Positions 51,001-58,204 of a stretch of 64,000 bases of DNA are shown here, piece after piece. This DNA is from Escherichia coli. Its GTDB lineage: Bacteria > Pseudomonadota > Gammaproteobacteria > Enterobacterales > Enterobacteriaceae. The stretch lies in NCBI RefSeq assembly GCF_036507355.1, contig NZ_AP027877.1, one strand, 5' to 3'. Position 1 is the first letter of the stretch. Each line of letters starts with the position of its first letter. A program made the position numbers.

Positions 51001-54000
51001 AACCCGGATGCGCTTTAACCCGAACCTTGATCCCGCGTGGTTTGGCGGGGTGATGGCAATCATCAACAACATTACCATGCTGGCGATTGTATTGACCGGA
51101 TCGGCGCTGATCCGCGAGCGTGAACACGGCACGGTGGAACACTTACTGGTGATGCCGATAACGCCGTTTGAGATCATGATGGCAAAGGTCTGGTCGATGG
51201 GGCTGGTGGTGCTGGTGGTGTCGGGATTATCGCTGGTGCTGATGGTGAAAGGCGTACTGGGTGTACCGATTGAAGGCTCGATCCCGCTGTTTATGCTGGG
51301 CGTGGCGCTCAGTTTGTTTGCCACCACGTCAATCGGCATTTTTATGGGGACGATAGCGCGTTCAATGCCGCAACTGGGGCTGCTGGTGATTCTGGTGCTG
51401 CTGCCGCTGCAAATGCTTTCCGGTGGATCCACGCCGCGCGAAAGTATGCCGCAGATGGTGCAGGACATTATGCTGACCATGCCGACGACACACTTTGTTA
51501 GCCTCGCGCAGGCCATTCTCTACCGTGGTGCAGGATTCGAAATCGTCTGGCCGCAGTTCCTGACGCTGATGGCAATTGGCGGCGCGTTTTTCACCATTGC
51601 GCTGCTGCGATTCAGGAAGACGATTGGGACAATGGCGTAAGGAAGGGAAACTTGACTTCATACTGTGATGTCATACTATTGATGTCATAAAGTGAAGTCA
51701 TAAGGACATGCCATGAGAACCAAGGTACAGGCTTTACGGAAGAAACAAAAAAATACATTGGATCAAATATTTAAAACTCCTGTTCCTCAAGGGATCAAGT
51801 GGTCTGATATAGAGTCACTGGTTAAAGCATTAGGCGGAGAAATTAAGGAAGGAAGAGGTTCGCGTTGTAAGTTCATACTAAATATGAGCGTTGCGTGTTT
51901 CCATCGGCCTCATCCGTCGCCAGATACCGATAAAGGCGCTGTAGAAAGCGTGCGTGACTGGTTACTAAGTATAGGGGTAAAACCATGATCAAACTGAAGA
52001 CGCCAAACTCTATGGAGATTGCCGGGCAACCTGCTGTTATCACTTACGTGCCAGAACTGAATGCATTTCGTGGCAAATTCCTGGGCTTGTCAGGTTATTG
52101 TGATTTTGTCTCTGACAGCATTCAGGGGCTGCAAAAAGAAGGGGAACTTTCCCTGCGAGAGTATCTTGAGGATTGTAAAGCTGCGGGTATTGAGCCGTAT
52201 GCGCGTACAGAAAAGATTAAGACCTTTACGTTACGCTATCCAGAATCGCTGAGTGAACGCCTTAATAATGCGGCTGCGCAGCAACAAGTCTCTGTTAATA
52301 CCTATATTATTGAAACACTGAATGAGCGTTTGAATCATTTATAAATTTTAGCGGCCCAACAATTTCTGTTGCGCCGCTATATTTTTGTGGCTCTTAAGAT
52401 GCCTTTCTAACCAACCGATGTCCCTCATTCATCATCAGAATTTTGCTATACACATCTTCCTCTACGGCGTTTTTTGCTGATGCCATCACTCGTGCCAGAT
52501 TCGCCTCGTTGTGATTATTCACATACGCTTTGCCGACGGCGGTGATAAACGCTTTGCGCAGATCGCTGGCGATATTTACTTTAGCGACGCGATAATTAAC
52601 AAAGCTGCGTAATATCTCCGGGGCGATACCGGAGCCGCCGTGAATAACCAACGGCACCGGACAGACTTCGGCAATGCGCTTCAGCAGGGGGATATCGATA
52701 CGCGGTATATCGTCCAGGCCATGAACGTTGCCAATAGAAACTGCCAGCATGTCGCAACCGGTACGCTCGACAAAGGTCTTCACCTTTTCCGGTTCCGTTT
52801 TGCAATCGGCTTCGCTGACATGATCATCTTCTTTGCCGAGAATCGCCCCCAGCTCCGCTTCAACCGGTACACCATAGGATTTACAGAAATCGACAGCTTC
52901 CTGGGTGAAAGCGATATTCTCTTCAAAAGAGAATGCGGCACCGTCAATCATGACCGAGGTAAAGCCCGCGCGCACCGCCTGTTTCACATCCTCCTGAGTT
53001 TTCCCGTGATCCAGATGAAGACTGACCGGAACATCCATTTTATCGGCGTGACGTTTCACGATTTCATAAATGTAATCGTATCCCGAGAGTTGTGCATTGG
53101 TTGGCGCAATCTGAATGAAGTTGGGTAATCCCGAACGCTCAATAGCGTTTAAAATTGAAATTGTCGTCTCCAGATTGGTGGTATTAAATGCGCCCGCTAA
53201 TACCCGTTTTTCCTGAATGCGGTCGAGCAGTATCCGTCCATTAACTAATGGCATATTGAAAACCTCATCTTTTAATATCAGTTAATTATTCAGCTTCACC
53301 GAAGCGGTCGCGAAATAAGTCGGTGAGAGTCTGTATGGCCTCGTTTTCATCATCACCGTCGCAGCGTATTTCCACCGTTTTTCCGCCTTTTATTCCGGCG
53401 CGCATAATATTCATCATGCTGGTGGCATTAATATCATTACCCTCATAGTGCAGCGTCACTTTACAGCTATATTTTTTGGCGGCTTTCGCCAGACAGGCCG
53501 CCGGACGTGCATGCAGGCCAGTACTGTTTCTGACCTCCACGGTTTTATTCAACATAGTGTTCCTCCCGATGATGTAATGGCATCACGCCTTCTTGTTGTA
53601 ATTTCAACTGATACCAGCTTTTCCATTTGTGCTGATAACGCTGTAATTGATGGTATCTCGCCCGATTCGGTAACAAACGTTGGGCTATAGCGACTGGCGG
53701 CGGTGGAATATCCGGTGCGGCGGTTAATAATGCTCCGACAGAAACCGCCTCGTTAAATGCAATTGCTTCAACCGGACGCTGTAAAATATCCGCCTTTAAT
53801 TGCAGCCAAAGAGGATTATGGGTTGCCGGACCGATCACTTTTAACGCGCTGGTGCCAGGCACGTTAAAACAGGCGAAGCAGTTGGCAAATTCCATGGTTA
53901 ATCCCAGTGATACGCTGGCAATTAACATGTCGATACTTAACGTATCGCCAAGCCCATAAAATAATCCACGGGTATGGCGATTTTTATAGGGCGAACCCGA

Positions 54001-57000: not shown

Positions 57001-58204
57001 TTGCATTGTGCCTGACATGTTTATGGTCCGTGTGCGGAATAGCGACGCACGGTGGTTCGGTAGGCAGCCCCGTTGGGTACGTCGCCTCACGTTTCAGTAC
57101 GTGATCGGCAAAATCAGGGACGACCAGCTCGGCGGCAACCAACGGTTGCGCTAACTGACGGATGATCTGTTCAACGCTTAACCCTGCCGGAAGTCGTTGA
57201 ATATAATTTTCCTGAAAATGTATGCCTTGCATTTTATTCCTCTTAAAAAAGTGTACTTAACTCACTTCCCGCCGTTGCAGTACGGTGCCAAGATAATATT
57301 TATTTCCTTTTAACCAGACGTTGCCAAACTCAATGGGTAAACCTCGGGAGAAAAAGACTAACTGCTCCAGATGCAAAACGGGTGCGTCTTCACTGATATC
57401 TAAAAAATGACCACGTTCATTACCAATTAATCGCGCGGCATAGCGACTTTCCGAGTAACGAATTTTTCTTTGCGACAAACTTTCTATTGTTGGAAATAAA
57501 TTATGTTGATTAAAATCGATTTCCGCAATACCGGGGCATAGCTCAATATTGATACGGTTCTCTATCAGCATCGCTTTTTCATCACCAATTGAGCGTAAGC
57601 GTTCAAGGTAAAGAATATCCTGACCGGGCGTTATTCTTAATTTCTCTGCCACATAACGATTAGCCGGTTCAATCCGTGACGTAATAACTTCAGTGGTAAA
57701 ATGTATTTTCTGGCTTTCCAGCGATTCCGCGAATGACAATAATCCTTCACCTAACGGATATGCCACGTTCTCTTTTTTGACAAATGTTCCCTTACCCTGG
57801 ACCTGTATTAACACGCCTTCTTTTACCAGTTGGGCGACCGCTTTTTTAACGGTTCCCCGACTCACTTCCAGCATATCCATAATCTGGTATTCCGAAGGAA
57901 TGCGATCGTCTTCCACCAGATCTCCGGTATAAATACTTTCTCTTATCCACTCCACCACTTGTTGATAGAGCGGTATTTGTGACGACTTACTTAATGATTT
58001 CATGGCGCGCACCTGAACATTTACAGTTGTCTATGGACAATCATGGACAACTTCAAGCGTATAGTAGGTGAACGGGAGAAAAAGAGGATCGAAGCGTCTC
58101 ACATTTTGAGGGACCAAATCGTGATCAAAAAAATGTGACGTGAGTCGATATGTGTCAGAAGTTTACTGCGCCGTAAGGAAATAACGGCGCGTTGGTAGGT
58201 GTTA

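What the first reader, a model, noticed from the sequence alone, without database searches (positions are those of the whole stretch)
52394..58012. Gat-type PTS, FGGY kinase, class II aldolase and private HPr island with GntR regulator
Seven co-oriented genes (GntR regulator, EIIA, EIIB, EIIC, FGGY kinase, HPr-like, class II bisphosphate aldolase) lie between the HicAB-like pair and nikR. The combination implies uptake with phosphorylation, a second phosphorylation and aldol cleavage of a ketose or polyol, but no dehydrogenase or isomerase is present. An FGGY kinase paired with a PTS is unusual, because FGGY enzymes normally act on free sugars, so the substrate is not obvious.
Basis: inference. 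Interest (0 to 1): 0.5.

Follow-up and report, generated by a model that had tools for sequence, protein, structure and literature searches.

The report
Orphan PTS–FGGY kinase–aldolase sugar operon
This is a real, intact seven-gene sugar-catabolism operon carried by about 30% of E. coli strains (and, as STM3779-STM3785, by Salmonella); its sugar is still unknown, and its unusual pairing of a phosphotransferase transporter with an FGGY-family kinase is conserved across distant bacteria, which points to an undescribed pathway.

Summary
On the minus strand lie a GntR/HutC regulator, EIIA, EIIB, a Gat-type EIIC, an FGGY kinase, an HPr and a class II aldolase, between hicAB and nikR in an E. coli window. 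The block is an accessory insertion, whole in 1635 of 5426 complete E. coli genomes, including O157:H7 Sakai (ECs_4349-4355), Nissle 1917 and the type strain. It is orthologous to Salmonella STM3779-STM3785, which the literature calls "unknown carbohydrate utilization". No searched paper or curated family model assigns a substrate.

In 80 species-level loci holding this kinase subfamily, the aldolase is adjacent in 77. All 60 PTS-containing loci have exactly one FGGY gene. All 18 PTS-less loci, all actinobacterial, have two or three, one of them xylulokinase-like. The kinase shares catalytic motifs with FucK and RhaB, which phosphorylate ketoses at C1.

Best reading (inferred): the PTS imports an unidentified ketose as its distal phosphate, the kinase phosphorylates C1, and the aldolase yields DHAP plus an aldose phosphate. 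Published phenotypes of island-bearing strains argue against D-tagatose, D-psicose and common polyols.

It is a new variant of a known pathway logic, of moderate interest.

The parts
58088..58149 (.). Inverted repeat carrying two CRP-like half-site pairs (TGTGA-N6-TCGAT on each arm) in the nikR-gntR intergenic region. This is the putative catabolite-control region of the operon promoter.
   Evidence: the repeat finder I1: 20-nt arms, 75% complementary. The same position holds perfect TGTGA-N6-TCACA sites in orthologous promoters of other genera, but the site is degenerate in E. coli, with no match at 2 or fewer mismatches. Function is inferred.
58025..58052 (.). Putative GntR/HutC operator: palindrome TTGTCCATAGACAA (58027-58040) plus an adjacent repeated half-site ATGGACAA (58043-58050). 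It lies about 25-50 nt upstream of the regulator's ATG.
   Evidence: It is the only site in the 64-kb window at 2 or fewer mismatches. It is conserved nearly base for base upstream of the regulator gene in the Enterobacterales orthologous loci where my ORF call placed the regulator's start correctly (19 of 20 printed), and recurs as TTGTAYA half-site arrays in Selenomonas, Listeria and Enterococcus. See also the inverted and direct repeats.
57257..58003 (-). GntR-family (HutC subfamily, HTH + UTRA) transcriptional regulator, first gene of the operon.
   Evidence: The Salmonella orthologue carries PF00392 + PF07702. RefSeq start is at 58003. dN/dS is 0.03 against a B2 allele.
56759..57232 (-). 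PTS EIIA (PTS_EIIA_2 type), His67 in the VAIPHT motif.
   Evidence: GatA model 57 bits against a cut-off of 139, and a fructose-type IIA domain. PF00359 in orthologues.
56481..56762 (-). PTS EIIB (PTS_IIB type), Cys9. Its start overlaps the EIIA stop by 4 nt.
   Evidence: GatB model 60 bits against a cut-off of 95. PF02302 in orthologues.
55046..56404 (-). PTS EIIC of the galactitol (Gat) family, the membrane permease.
   Evidence: TIGR00827 at 476 bits, E 8e-143, below the 542-bit cut-off of the galactitol-specific model. PF03611 in orthologues.
53545..55053 (-). FGGY-family carbohydrate kinase of an uncharacterised subfamily. Its start overlaps the EIIC stop by 8 nt. Catalytic Asp240 lies in AGHDHMVGA.
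   Evidence: Motif comparison with E. coli FucK, RhaB, XylB, GlpK and AraB is.
53286..53555 (-). Dedicated HPr-family phosphocarrier (His15, Arg17, Ser46). Its start overlaps the kinase stop by 11 nt.
   Evidence: TIGR01003 at 103 bits. It is closer to the Gram-positive HPr model (78 bits) than to the E. coli PtsH model (51 bits against a cut-off of 153).
52394..53254 (-). Class II (metal-dependent) ketose-phosphate aldolase of the FBA/TBA TIM-barrel family, last gene of the operon.
   Evidence: NF005943 at 557 bits. It aligns with AgaY 1GVF (E 2e-48) with D82, H83, E134, E142, H178, H205, S208 and N227 conserved.
52343..52385 (.). Hairpin (19-nt arms, 5-nt loop) in the 49-nt gap between the convergent hicB and aldolase genes. 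It is a likely bidirectional terminator marking the operon's 3' end.
   Evidence: the repeat finder I2, 84% complementary. Sequence is shown.

Best explanation
The locus is an accessory, self-regulated catabolic operon for a still unidentified ketose sugar, probably a rare D-ketohexose or a heptulose.

Proposed mechanism:
1. Enzyme I phosphorylates the operon's own HPr (His15). HPr passes the phosphoryl group to EIIA (His67) and EIIB (Cys9).
2. The Gat-type EIIC imports the sugar and releases it phosphorylated on its distal primary hydroxyl.
3. The FGGY kinase uses ATP to add a second phosphate at C1, next to the keto group.
4. The class II aldolase cleaves the ketose bisphosphate into dihydroxyacetone phosphate plus an aldose phosphate (glyceraldehyde 3-phosphate if the sugar is a hexulose). 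Both products enter glycolysis directly, so no dehydrogenase or isomerase is needed.
5. The HutC-type GntR repressor binds the palindrome upstream of its own gene and is presumably released by a phosphorylated intermediate.

Shown here: gene identities, intact catalytic and phosphorelay residues, operon compactness, cross-phylum conservation of the module, the operator, and purifying selection.

Inferred: the order of steps, the position each phosphate goes to, the substrate class and the effector.
For: (1) The parts are intact and constrained. Aldolase Zn and catalytic residues are invariant in 84 family members. The kinase catalytic Asp and ATP motifs are present. dN/dS is 0.02-0.06 for the regulator, EIIB, EIIC, kinase and aldolase between two E. 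coli alleles.

(2) The PTS-kinase-aldolase module is not a chance neighbourhood. In 80 species-level loci recovered with the kinase:
- the aldolase lies within 6 genes in 77;
- a Gat-type EIIC is present in 60, directly upstream of the kinase in 53 and overlapping it by 8 nt in 24;
- minimal versions with only a regulator, the aldolase, EIIA/B/C and the kinase occur in Enterococcus, Listeria, Pectinatus and Selenomonas.

(3) Two phosphorylations are needed. All 60 PTS loci have exactly one FGGY gene. All 18 PTS-less loci, all Actinobacteria with ABC transporters, have two or three in tandem next to the aldolase. The extra kinase is xylulokinase-like (318 bits to TIGR01312; motifs GQQH and GSGDNAA), that is, of the type that phosphorylates the distal carbon.

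(4) The conserved kinase looks like a C1 kinase. Its motifs AGHDH, FGESG and GTTE match FucK (AGHDT, FGVDG, GTWE) and RhaB (ASHDT). They do not match XylB (GGGDN) or GlpK (AGDQ).

(5) Sister clusters add a GatD-like polyol-phosphate dehydrogenase (238 bits to the galactitol-1-P 5-dehydrogenase model). By analogy with the gat pathway, its product would be a distally phosphorylated ketose that still needs C1 phosphorylation.

(6) The aldolase keeps a basic residue, R233 (82 Arg + 2 Lys of 84), at the NxxxDLR position. In H. pylori FBP aldolase this position is Arg259, a ligand of the 6-phosphate (PMC10665668).

(7) There is a single conserved operator and promoter region upstream of the first gene, and a hairpin after the last.
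Against: - No enzyme activity, transcript or phenotype has been measured for this locus.
- Every characterised FGGY kinase acts on an unphosphorylated substrate (established knowledge of the family). The proposed activity therefore has no precedent.
- The second distal-phosphate ligand of FBP/TBP aldolases (AgaY Arg257, H. pylori Arg280) is not conserved in register; only a neighbouring Arg/Lys is present, in 64 of 84 members. The Ser49 ligand is Ala in most members. A monophosphate substrate is therefore possible, as in YdjI or SqiA.
- Characterised PTS systems for ketoses (fructose, tagatose, sorbose) phosphorylate C1, not the distal carbon (PMC9720028 introduction, and general knowledge).
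- Island-bearing strains show no phenotype on the ketoses that have been tested.
- The Salmonella orthologue is reported to be H-NS-silenced, so the operon may be cryptic under laboratory conditions.
Confidence: 0.5

Rival explanations
1. Parallel-entry, single-phosphate pathway. The PTS and the FucK-like kinase both make the same ketose 1-phosphate: the PTS from external sugar, the kinase from free intracellular sugar. The class II aldolase then cleaves that monophosphate to DHAP plus an unphosphorylated aldehyde, which housekeeping enzymes handle.
For: - The kinase has FucK/RhaB-like motifs, typical of free-ketose C1 kinases.
- Known ketose PTSs give 1-phosphates.
- FBA-fold class II aldolases that act on monophosphates exist: YdjI (PDB 6OFU) and SqiA (8Q57-8Q5A) are among this aldolase's PDB relatives.
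- The partner-subunit Arg for the distal phosphate is not conserved in register.
Against: - A merely redundant kinase would not be expected in all 60 PTS loci, usually translationally coupled to EIIC.
- PTS-less loci have two or three kinases rather than one.
- R233, at the 6-phosphate-binding position, is essentially invariant.
- No aldehyde-handling gene co-varies with the module.
Confidence: 0.15
2. Aldolase first, kinase last, like liver fructose metabolism. The PTS makes a ketose 1-phosphate, the aldolase splits it into DHAP plus D-glyceraldehyde (or another small aldehyde or polyol), and the FGGY kinase phosphorylates that product, acting as a triose kinase.
For: - The FGGY enzyme would act on a free substrate, as all known members do.
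- The closest solved structures by sequence are glycerol kinases (E 2e-24).
- The total of two phosphorylations fits the PTS versus extra-kinase complementarity.
Against: - The GlpK glycerol-binding residues are not kept: the Arg83-Glu84 position reads Gly-Glu, the Tyr135 position reads Asn, and GDQ is replaced by HDH.
- The companion kinase in PTS-less loci is xylulokinase-like, a distal-carbon kinase, whose product could not be cleaved by a DHAP-dependent aldolase without C1 phosphorylation.
- GatD-like polyol-phosphate dehydrogenases in sister clusters likewise predict distally phosphorylated ketoses.
Confidence: 0.12
3. The private HPr is primarily a regulator of the FGGY kinase, or a phosphoryl donor to it, rather than a link in transport. 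Precedents are HPr~P activation of Gram-positive GlpK, HPr binding to LsrK, and the PTS-dependent DhaKLM kinase.
For: - The HPr and kinase genes overlap by 11 nt in E. coli.
- The HPr is Gram-positive-like and has Ser46.
- Links between FGGY kinases and PTS proteins are established for GlpK and LsrK (general knowledge).
Against: - The GlpK phosphorylatable His (His232 loop) aligns with Lys in this kinase.
- HPr is absent from 24 of the 60 PTS loci, including all Enterococcus, Listeria and Negativicutes versions.
- In Salmonella and most Enterobacterales the gene order is kinase-aldolase-HPr, so adjacency to the kinase is not conserved.
- The kinase's ATP-binding motifs are intact.
Confidence: 0.07
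4. The operon is a silent or decaying horizontally acquired remnant with no current role in E. coli.
For: - It is an accessory insertion, absent from 70% of genomes.
- Its CRP-like sites are degenerate in E. coli compared with other genera.
- The Salmonella orthologue is reported to be H-NS-repressed.
- No growth phenotype tracks with it.
Against: - All seven genes are intact in every strain inspected: this window, Sakai, Nissle 1917, ATCC 11775 and strain 81009.
- dN/dS is 0.02-0.06 for five genes across about 4% nucleotide divergence.
- The operator is conserved.
Confidence: 0.05

Closest known systems
Salmonella enterica STM3779-STM3785 island
   Same: It has the same seven gene families in the same orientation. 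The kinase is 63% identical, and the operator and promoter architecture is nearly identical.
   Different: The last two genes are swapped (aldolase-HPr rather than HPr-aldolase). The chromosomal site differs: it lies next to uhp and dga, not between yhhJ and nikR. It is itself uncharacterised, described as 'unknown carbohydrate utilization', H-NS-repressed and AT-rich (PMC3604774).
PTS-dependent D-tagatose pathway of Klebsiella oxytoca and Bacillus licheniformis (TagTH, TagK, GatYZ)
   Same: The logic is the same: PTS uptake with phosphorylation, an ATP-dependent second phosphorylation to a ketose 1,6-bisphosphate, then class II aldolase cleavage to DHAP + GAP (as summarised in PMC9720028).
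   Different: In that pathway the PTS is paralogous to the fructose (fru) system rather than Gat-type, and gives the 1-phosphate, as I recall from Shakeri-Garakani et al. 2004 (not re-read here). Its second kinase is TagK, a tagatose-1-phosphate kinase; from memory it is a FruK-like, PfkB-family enzyme, not FGGY. Its aldolase needs GatZ, and no GatZ gene is present here. Nissle 1917 carries this island, yet it cannot use D-tagatose once its ABC-type tag cluster is deleted.
E. coli galactitol (gat) operon: GatABC, GatD, GatYZ plus PfkA
   Same: It has a Gat-family EIIA/B/C and a class II aldolase of the same fold. Its intermediate is a distally phosphorylated ketose (tagatose 6-phosphate) that needs C1 phosphorylation before cleavage.
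   Different: Here there is no GatD dehydrogenase, no GatZ and no GatR (DeoR-type) regulator. The C1 phosphorylation would be done by a dedicated FGGY kinase instead of housekeeping PfkA. All components score below the GatA, GatB, GatC and GatY curated cut-offs. The island-bearing type strain is dulcitol-negative.
L-fucose and L-rhamnose pathways (FucK/FucA, RhaB/RhaD)
   Same: An FGGY kinase with the (G/S)HD catalytic motif phosphorylates C1 of a 2-ketose, and a metal-dependent aldolase then releases DHAP (for the motifs).
   Different: Those kinases act on free ketoses made by an isomerase. Transport is by symporters, not a PTS. The aldolases belong to a different fold (the FucA/RhaD class II family, not the FBA TIM barrel). 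The second product is an unphosphorylated aldehyde.
Regulatory links between PTS proteins and FGGY kinases (EIIA-Glc or HPr~P with GlpK; HPr with LsrK)
   Same: A PTS phosphocarrier and an FGGY kinase act in one physiological context.
   Different: Those links are regulatory and the genes are not part of one catabolic operon. The GlpK-type phosphorylatable His is absent here.

Membership tests
PTS galactitol (Gat) family transporter | EIIC with the EIIC-GAT fold (TIGR00827 / PF03611) | tested here: met
   TIGR00827 at 476 bits, E 8e-143, covering profile positions 1-406 of 407. PF03611 is on the orthologues.
PTS galactitol (Gat) family transporter | Separate EIIA (PTS_EIIA_2) and EIIB (PTS_IIB) proteins with a phosphorylatable His and Cys | tested here: met
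   EIIA has His67 in VAIPHT and EIIB has Cys9 in FVCATG, read. Family hits are; PF00359 and PF02302 are on the orthologues. Phosphotransfer itself was not tested.
PTS galactitol (Gat) family transporter | Galactitol specificity (equivalog-level match to GatA, GatB, GatC) | tested here: not met
   GatA 57 bits against a cut-off of 139; GatB 60 against 95; EIIC 476 against 542. The island-bearing strain ATCC 11775 is dulcitol-negative.
FGGY carbohydrate kinase family | Two actin-like ATPase domains (FGGY_N, FGGY_C) with a catalytic Asp and ATP-binding motifs | tested here: met
   PF00370 + PF02782 are on the 97%-identical cluster representative. D240 aligns with the catalytic Asp of GlpK, XylB, FucK and RhaB, and the DxGTT and GT motifs are present.
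FGGY carbohydrate kinase family | Membership of a characterised specificity group (XylB, GlpK, FucK, RhaB, GntK, LsrK, pentulose kinase) | tested here: not met
   Best scores against cut-offs: 145/380 (XylB), 127/590 (GlpK), 119/471 (FucK), 83/649 (GntK), 58/528 (RhaB), 45/528 (LsrK). No PDB relative is better than E 2e-24.
Class II (metal-dependent) fructose/tagatose-bisphosphate aldolase family (PF01116) | Zn ligands (three His) and catalytic Asp and Glu of the FBA TIM barrel | tested here: met
   H83, H178 and H205 (AgaY H83, H180, H208), D82, E134, E142 and N227 are invariant in 84 of 84 family members.
Class II (metal-dependent) fructose/tagatose-bisphosphate aldolase family (PF01116) | Complete binding site for the distal (C6) phosphate: Ser49, Arg259 and partner-subunit Arg280 in H. 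pylori numbering | tested here: inconclusive
   The Arg259 equivalent, R233, is kept (82 Arg + 2 Lys of 84). The Arg280 equivalent is not conserved in register, with Arg/Lys one position away in 64 of 84. The Ser49 equivalent is Ala50 in most members. The residue equivalences rest on sequence alignment only.
Tagatose-bisphosphate aldolase GatY/KbaY | Equivalog-level similarity and a GatZ/KbaZ partner gene | tested here: not met
   GatY 240 bits against a cut-off of 383; KbaY 182 against 542; TIGR01858 220 against 444. No GatZ-like gene is in the locus.
HPr phosphocarrier family | His15 active site with Arg17; overall HPr fold | tested here: met
   GLHARPA places His15 and Arg17, and Ser46 is also present. 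TIGR01003 at 103 bits against a cut-off of 48. It is not the housekeeping PtsH (51 against 153).
GntR family, HutC subfamily repressor | N-terminal GntR winged helix plus C-terminal UTRA effector domain; palindromic operator near its own promoter | tested here: met
   Hits to PhnF, TreR and HutC-type models cover residues 9-247. PF00392 + PF07702 are on the orthologues. The conserved palindrome lies at 58027-58040. Binding was not tested.
D-tagatose or D-psicose utilisation system | Confers growth or respiration on the sugar | tested here: not met
   This is literature evidence from island-bearing strains. Nissle 1917 with its ABC tag cluster deleted neither grows on nor consumes D-tagatose (PMC9720028). 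ATCC 11775 is D-psicose-negative (PMC4334874). Caveat: the operon may be silent in those assays.

The most novel reading that the evidence does not exclude
The FGGY kinase is the first member of its family to act on a sugar phosphate. It would be a ketose-phosphate 1-kinase that takes over from a PTS, or in Actinobacteria from a xylulokinase-like kinase. If so, it defines an undescribed PTS-FGGY-class II aldolase route, conserved from E. coli and Salmonella to Enterococcus, Negativicutes, Bacillaceae and Actinobacteria, for a natural ketose or polyol that is missing from standard phenotype arrays.
Probability: 0.4. Interest if true: 0.6.

Novelty: new variant of a known kind. Interest (0 to 1): 0.45.

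Why it matters
About 30% of complete E. coli genomes carry this intact, selectively maintained operon, including O157:H7, ST131-type strains, the probiotic Nissle 1917 and the species type strain. Salmonella enterica subspecies I carries it too. No nutrient has been assigned to it.

Identifying the substrate would add a missing reaction set to E. coli and Salmonella metabolic models. It could also reveal a gut or plant-derived sugar niche that distinguishes lineages.

If the kinase really phosphorylates a ketose phosphate, that extends the catalytic repertoire of the well-studied FGGY family. It would also explain a gene pairing that annotation pipelines currently mislabel as "L-fuculokinase" and "gatY".

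Tried and rejected
- **Literature.** Ten full-text searches were run: the gene-family combination, STM3779-3785, ECs4349-4355 and OI-139, nikR/yhhJ context, rare-sugar phosphates, and the RefSeq (PGAP) product names. Only the Salmonella 'unknown carbohydrate' statement and an ArcA-regulon mention turned up.
- **D-tagatose.** Rejected as a growth substrate. Nissle 1917 has the island, but its tag-cluster deletion is tagatose-negative.
- **D-psicose.** It looked promising because Nissle is positive and K-12 negative. It was rejected because the island-bearing type strain is negative.
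- **Common polyols and related compounds.** Dulcitol, adonitol, D- and L-arabitol, xylitol, erythritol, inositol, sedoheptulosan and palatinose are all negative in that same strain.
- **D-arabinose.** It is positive in both island-bearing strains, but it was not pursued. The island has no isomerase, and I recall a separate D-ribulokinase in the E. coli B fuc cluster (recalled, not tested here).
- **GlpK-style regulation by HPr~P.** The phosphorylatable His is not conserved.
- **RNA elements.** No Rfam family matches in 51000-59000 at E up to 0.1.
- **Promoter and terminator scans.** The counts did not exceed shuffled expectation, so they were not used as evidence.
- **CRP sites.** No site with 2 or fewer mismatches lies in the E. 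coli promoter. These are reported only as degenerate relics.
- **Aldolase distal-phosphate site.** It was examined to decide between monophosphate and bisphosphate substrates, and the result was inconclusive.
- **Not attempted.** Structure prediction and fold search were skipped because the tools return no coordinates, so pocket geometry could not be analysed.

Full report
**1. What is in the sequence**

The window is E. coli chromosome. Between yhhJ (stop at 51640) and nikR (58202-58603, minus strand) lie a hicA/hicB pair on the plus strand (51713-52344) and seven co-oriented minus-strand genes. NCBIfam assigns them as follows:

| Gene | Coordinates | Best family match |
|---|---|---|
| GntR/HutC regulator | 57257-58003 | PhnF, TreR and HutC-type models |
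| PTS EIIA | 56759-57232 | PTS_EIIA_2 type |
| PTS EIIB | 56481-56762 | PTS_IIB type |
| Gat-family EIIC | 55046-56404 | TIGR00827, E 8e-143 |
| FGGY kinase | 53545-55053 | XylB, GlpK, FucK, all far below cut-off |
| HPr | 53286-53555 | TIGR01003, E 5e-30 |
| Class II aldolase | 52394-53254 | NF005943, 557 bits |

- RefSeq annotation of identical loci supports the shorter starts for the regulator and EIIC.
- The genes overlap or nearly abut. EIIA/EIIB overlap by 4 nt, EIIC/kinase by 8 nt and kinase/HPr by 11 nt. The other gaps are 24-76 nt.
- HPr His15, Arg17 and Ser46, EIIA His67 and EIIB Cys9 are all present.

**2. What kind of locus it is**

- The seven-gene block is found whole in 1635 of 5426 complete E. 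coli genomes, always on the chromosome.
- Carriers include O157:H7 Sakai, where it is ECs_4349-ECs_4355 and annotated 'fucK' and 'gatY'. They also include Nissle 1917, the type strain ATCC 11775 and strain 81009.
- The yhhJ-nikR gap exists in at least four states:
  - empty, with 8 nt between the two stop codons;
  - hicAB only;
  - the PTS block only;
  - both, as in this window.
- hicAB and the PTS block are therefore independent insertions into one hotspot.
- Between this window's allele and a B2 allele (about 4% nucleotide divergence), dN/dS is 0.02-0.06 for the regulator, EIIB, EIIC, kinase and aldolase. The genes are maintained by selection.
- The closest orthologue outside Escherichia and Citrobacter is the Salmonella STM3779-STM3785 island. 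It has the same seven families, and its kinase is 63% identical.
- The literature describes that island as gained by the ancestor of subspecies I. It is called AT-rich and H-NS-repressed, 'needed for unknown carbohydrate utilization' (PMC3604774). STM3784 is ArcA-activated (PMC3075218).
- Ten full-text searches found no paper that assigns a substrate.

**3. Regulation**

- A palindrome, TTGTCCATAGACAA (58027-58040), with an adjacent repeated half-site, lies 25-50 nt upstream of the regulator's ATG.
- It is the only such site in the 64-kb window.
- It is conserved almost base for base upstream of the regulator gene in the Enterobacterales orthologous loci where the regulator start was called correctly (19 of 20 printed). 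Related TTGTAYA half-site arrays sit in the same place in Selenomonas, Listeria and Enterococcus.
- This is what is expected of a HutC-type autorepressor controlling one transcript.
- Further upstream, an inverted repeat (58088-58149) carries two TGTGA-N6-TCGAT elements. Other genera have perfect CRP consensus sites there, but E. coli's are degenerate.
- A 19-nt-arm hairpin fills the gap between the convergent aldolase and hicB genes.
- No Rfam element is present.
- Generic promoter and terminator scans were not above chance and are not used as evidence. Co-transcription is thus well supported but not demonstrated.

**4. Is the PTS-FGGY pairing real?**

A scan of one genome per species, using a profile of this kinase subfamily, returned 80 loci. 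I called and clustered their ORFs.

- The class II aldolase lies within six genes of the kinase in 77 of 80 loci. One exception is a 1.3-kb contig, and two are probably ORF-calling artefacts.
- A Gat-type EIIC is present in 60 loci. It is directly upstream of the kinase in 53 and overlaps it by 8 nt in 24.
- Minimal versions occur in Enterococcus, Listeria, Pectinatus and Selenomonas. They hold only a regulator, the aldolase, EIIA/B/C and the kinase, with no dehydrogenase and no HPr.
- The core module is therefore PTS + FGGY kinase + aldolase. It has been kept together across Proteobacteria, Bacilli and Negativicutes.
- HPr accompanies it in 36 loci, all of them Enterobacterales or Bacillaceae. 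The E. coli HPr scores higher against Gram-positive HPr models than against PtsH. This fits a transferred system that brings its own phosphocarrier.

**5. The co-varying dehydrogenase**

- Thirty-four loci add Zn-dependent medium-chain dehydrogenases. They are in Pantoea, Erwinia, Raoultella, Serratia, Buttiauxella, Gilliamella and Bacillaceae, and in some Actinobacteria.
- One copy is most similar to galactitol-1-phosphate 5-dehydrogenase (238 bits, below cut-off). Another is most similar to threonine or scyllo-inosose dehydrogenases.
- Nine loci also carry a SurE-like phosphatase.
- These look like polyol-utilising sister versions of the module. The E. coli and Salmonella version lacks them, so it should take the ketose itself.

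**6. How many phosphorylations, and where**

- All 60 PTS loci have exactly one FGGY gene within six genes.
- All 18 genuine PTS-less loci are actinobacterial and mostly lie next to ABC-transporter genes. They have two or three FGGY genes in tandem beside the aldolase.
- The PTS is therefore functionally interchangeable with extra ATP-dependent kinase(s). The pathway needs two phosphoryl transfers.
- The extra actinobacterial kinase K2 is xylulokinase-like (318 bits to TIGR01312; motifs GQQH and GSGDNAA). This is the type that phosphorylates the carbon distal to the keto group.
- The kinase common to all loci carries AGHDHMVGA, FGESG and STGTTE. These resemble FucK (AGHDTQF, FGVDG, SGTWE) and RhaB (ASHDTAS), the FGGY enzymes that phosphorylate C1 of 2-ketoses. 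They do not resemble XylB (GGGDNAA) or GlpK (AGDQQ).
- A GatD-like dehydrogenase would, by analogy with the gat pathway, also produce a distally phosphorylated ketose.
- These three lines converge on one scheme. A ketose distal-phosphate is phosphorylated at C1 by this kinase. The resulting bisphosphate is cleaved by the aldolase to DHAP plus an aldose phosphate.
- The scheme is an inference. No characterised FGGY kinase uses a phosphorylated substrate.

**7. The aldolase**

- Alignment with AgaY (1GVF) and 84 family members shows invariant Zn ligands and catalytic residues: D82, H83, E134, E142, H178, H205, S208 and N227.
- R233 is Arg in 82 and Lys in 2 of 84 members. It sits in the NxxxDLR motif, which by sequence alignment corresponds to H. 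pylori FBP aldolase Arg259, a 6-phosphate ligand (PMC10665668).
- The partner-subunit Arg (H. pylori Arg280, AgaY Arg257) is not conserved in register, and Ser49 is usually Ala.
- The evidence for a second anionic group on the substrate is therefore suggestive only. Monophosphate-cleaving relatives exist (YdjI, SqiA).
- A229 occupies the position of FBA Asp255, as Ala232 does in AgaY.

**8. Substrate**

Published phenotypes of island-bearing strains narrow the field.

- Nissle 1917 loses all growth on D-tagatose, and all consumption of it, when only its ABC-type tag cluster is deleted (PMC9720028).
- ATCC 11775 (DSM 30083T) is Biolog-negative for D-psicose, dulcitol, adonitol, D- and L-arabitol, xylitol, erythritol, myo-inositol, sedoheptulosan and palatinose (PMC4334874).
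- Nissle's D-psicose-positive phenotype (PMC7924626) therefore does not track with the island.
- Unless the operon is simply silent in such assays, which is possible given H-NS repression in Salmonella, the substrate is something not on standard plates. By elimination (inference only), candidates are D-sorbose or another rare ketohexose, a heptulose such as mannoheptulose, or a related compound. I cannot go further with sequence data.

**9. Rivals**

- **(a) Parallel entry.** The PTS and the kinase make the same ketose 1-phosphate, and the aldolase cleaves that monophosphate. This fits the FucK-like motifs and the incomplete distal-phosphate site. It does not explain the universal, coupled retention of the kinase or the two to three kinases in PTS-less loci.
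- **(b) Aldolase first, kinase acting as a triose kinase.** This keeps FGGY on a free substrate. However, the GlpK substrate residues are absent, and the xylulokinase-like and GatD-like companions argue against it.
- **(c) HPr as a regulator of the kinase.** The GlpK-type His is absent, and HPr is missing from 24 of the 60 PTS loci.
- **(d) A decaying remnant.** This is contradicted by the intact genes and the low dN/dS.

**10. Verdict**

- The locus is already annotated, and its Salmonella orthologue has been noted as an orphan. The object is not new, but its function is unassigned.
- The comparative pattern found here makes a specific, testable prediction of a new FGGY activity within a familiar PTS-kinase-aldolase logic.
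- I rate it a new variant of a known kind, of moderate interest (0.45).

Noticed in passing
window 51641-52355 (hicA 51713-51988, hicB 51985-52344; repeats 51653-51705): The HicAB pair is a separate insertion module. Some E. coli strains have hicAB without the PTS block, others the PTS block without hicAB, and others neither, all at the same yhhJ-nikR junction. Upstream of hicA are four 12-13-nt TGAYKTCATA-type repeats arranged as two inverted pairs, which may be a HicB operator.
   Followed up: partly
window 58088-58149: A symmetrical pair of TGTGA-N6-TCGAT elements lies in the operon's upstream region. Orthologous promoters in Cedecea, Rahnella, Enterobacter, Salmonella and others have perfect CRP consensus sites at the distal position, whereas E. 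coli's left half-site is degenerate. This may mean weakened catabolite control in E. coli.
   Followed up: partly
L100 1142-1256 (strain 81009), compared with window 51641-52410: In B2-type strains that lack hicAB, the yhhJ-aldolase gap holds a REP-like palindromic element (GCCGGATAAGGCGTCACGCCGCATCCGGC). The aldolase gene is 852 nt (283 aa) instead of 861 nt (286 aa), so the 3' end of the island differs between lineages.
   Followed up: no
L033-L035 (Enterococcus raffinosus, malodoratus, avium), about 10900-17600: Directly downstream of the module, these sorbose-fermenting enterococci carry a second class II aldolase, a large PRD-type regulator, four small genes that look like a mannose-family PTS, and a Zn-dependent dehydrogenase. 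This is possibly a sorbose-type operon. The adjacency of two ketose systems was not explored.
   Followed up: no
L058, L061, L070 and other actinobacterial loci, about 8000-13500: These loci hold a tandem aldolase-K1-K2-K3 array. K3 (GGHDHP, GVGEDG) is a divergent paralogue of the kinase subfamily studied here, and it lacks the region around the GlpK Tyr135 loop. Its role is unknown.
   Followed up: partly
L092 43143-47452 (E. coli ATCC 11775, between rpoH and livJ): This is another accessory cluster with no obvious assigned substrate. It holds a mannose-family PTS IIA/IIB/IIC/IID with a phosphoglycerate-dehydrogenase-like gene and a DapA-like lyase, and it is absent from the corresponding region of Nissle 1917 and Sakai.
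   Followed up: no
L007 12682-27698 (O157:H7 Sakai, between yhhT and acpT): Sakai has a roughly 15-kb acyl-carrier-protein, ketosynthase and acyltransferase cluster upstream of acpT-nikA. It is missing in Nissle 1917 and ATCC 11775, so the nik neighbourhood is variable on both sides.
   Followed up: no
window 53286-53555 (HPr): Between the window allele and the B2 allele, the HPr gene has 3 nonsynonymous and 1 synonymous changes (dN/dS 0.83). EIIA has dN/dS 0.24, against 0.02-0.06 for the other five genes. The counts are too small to interpret, but the two soluble phosphocarriers are the least constrained parts.
   Followed up: no
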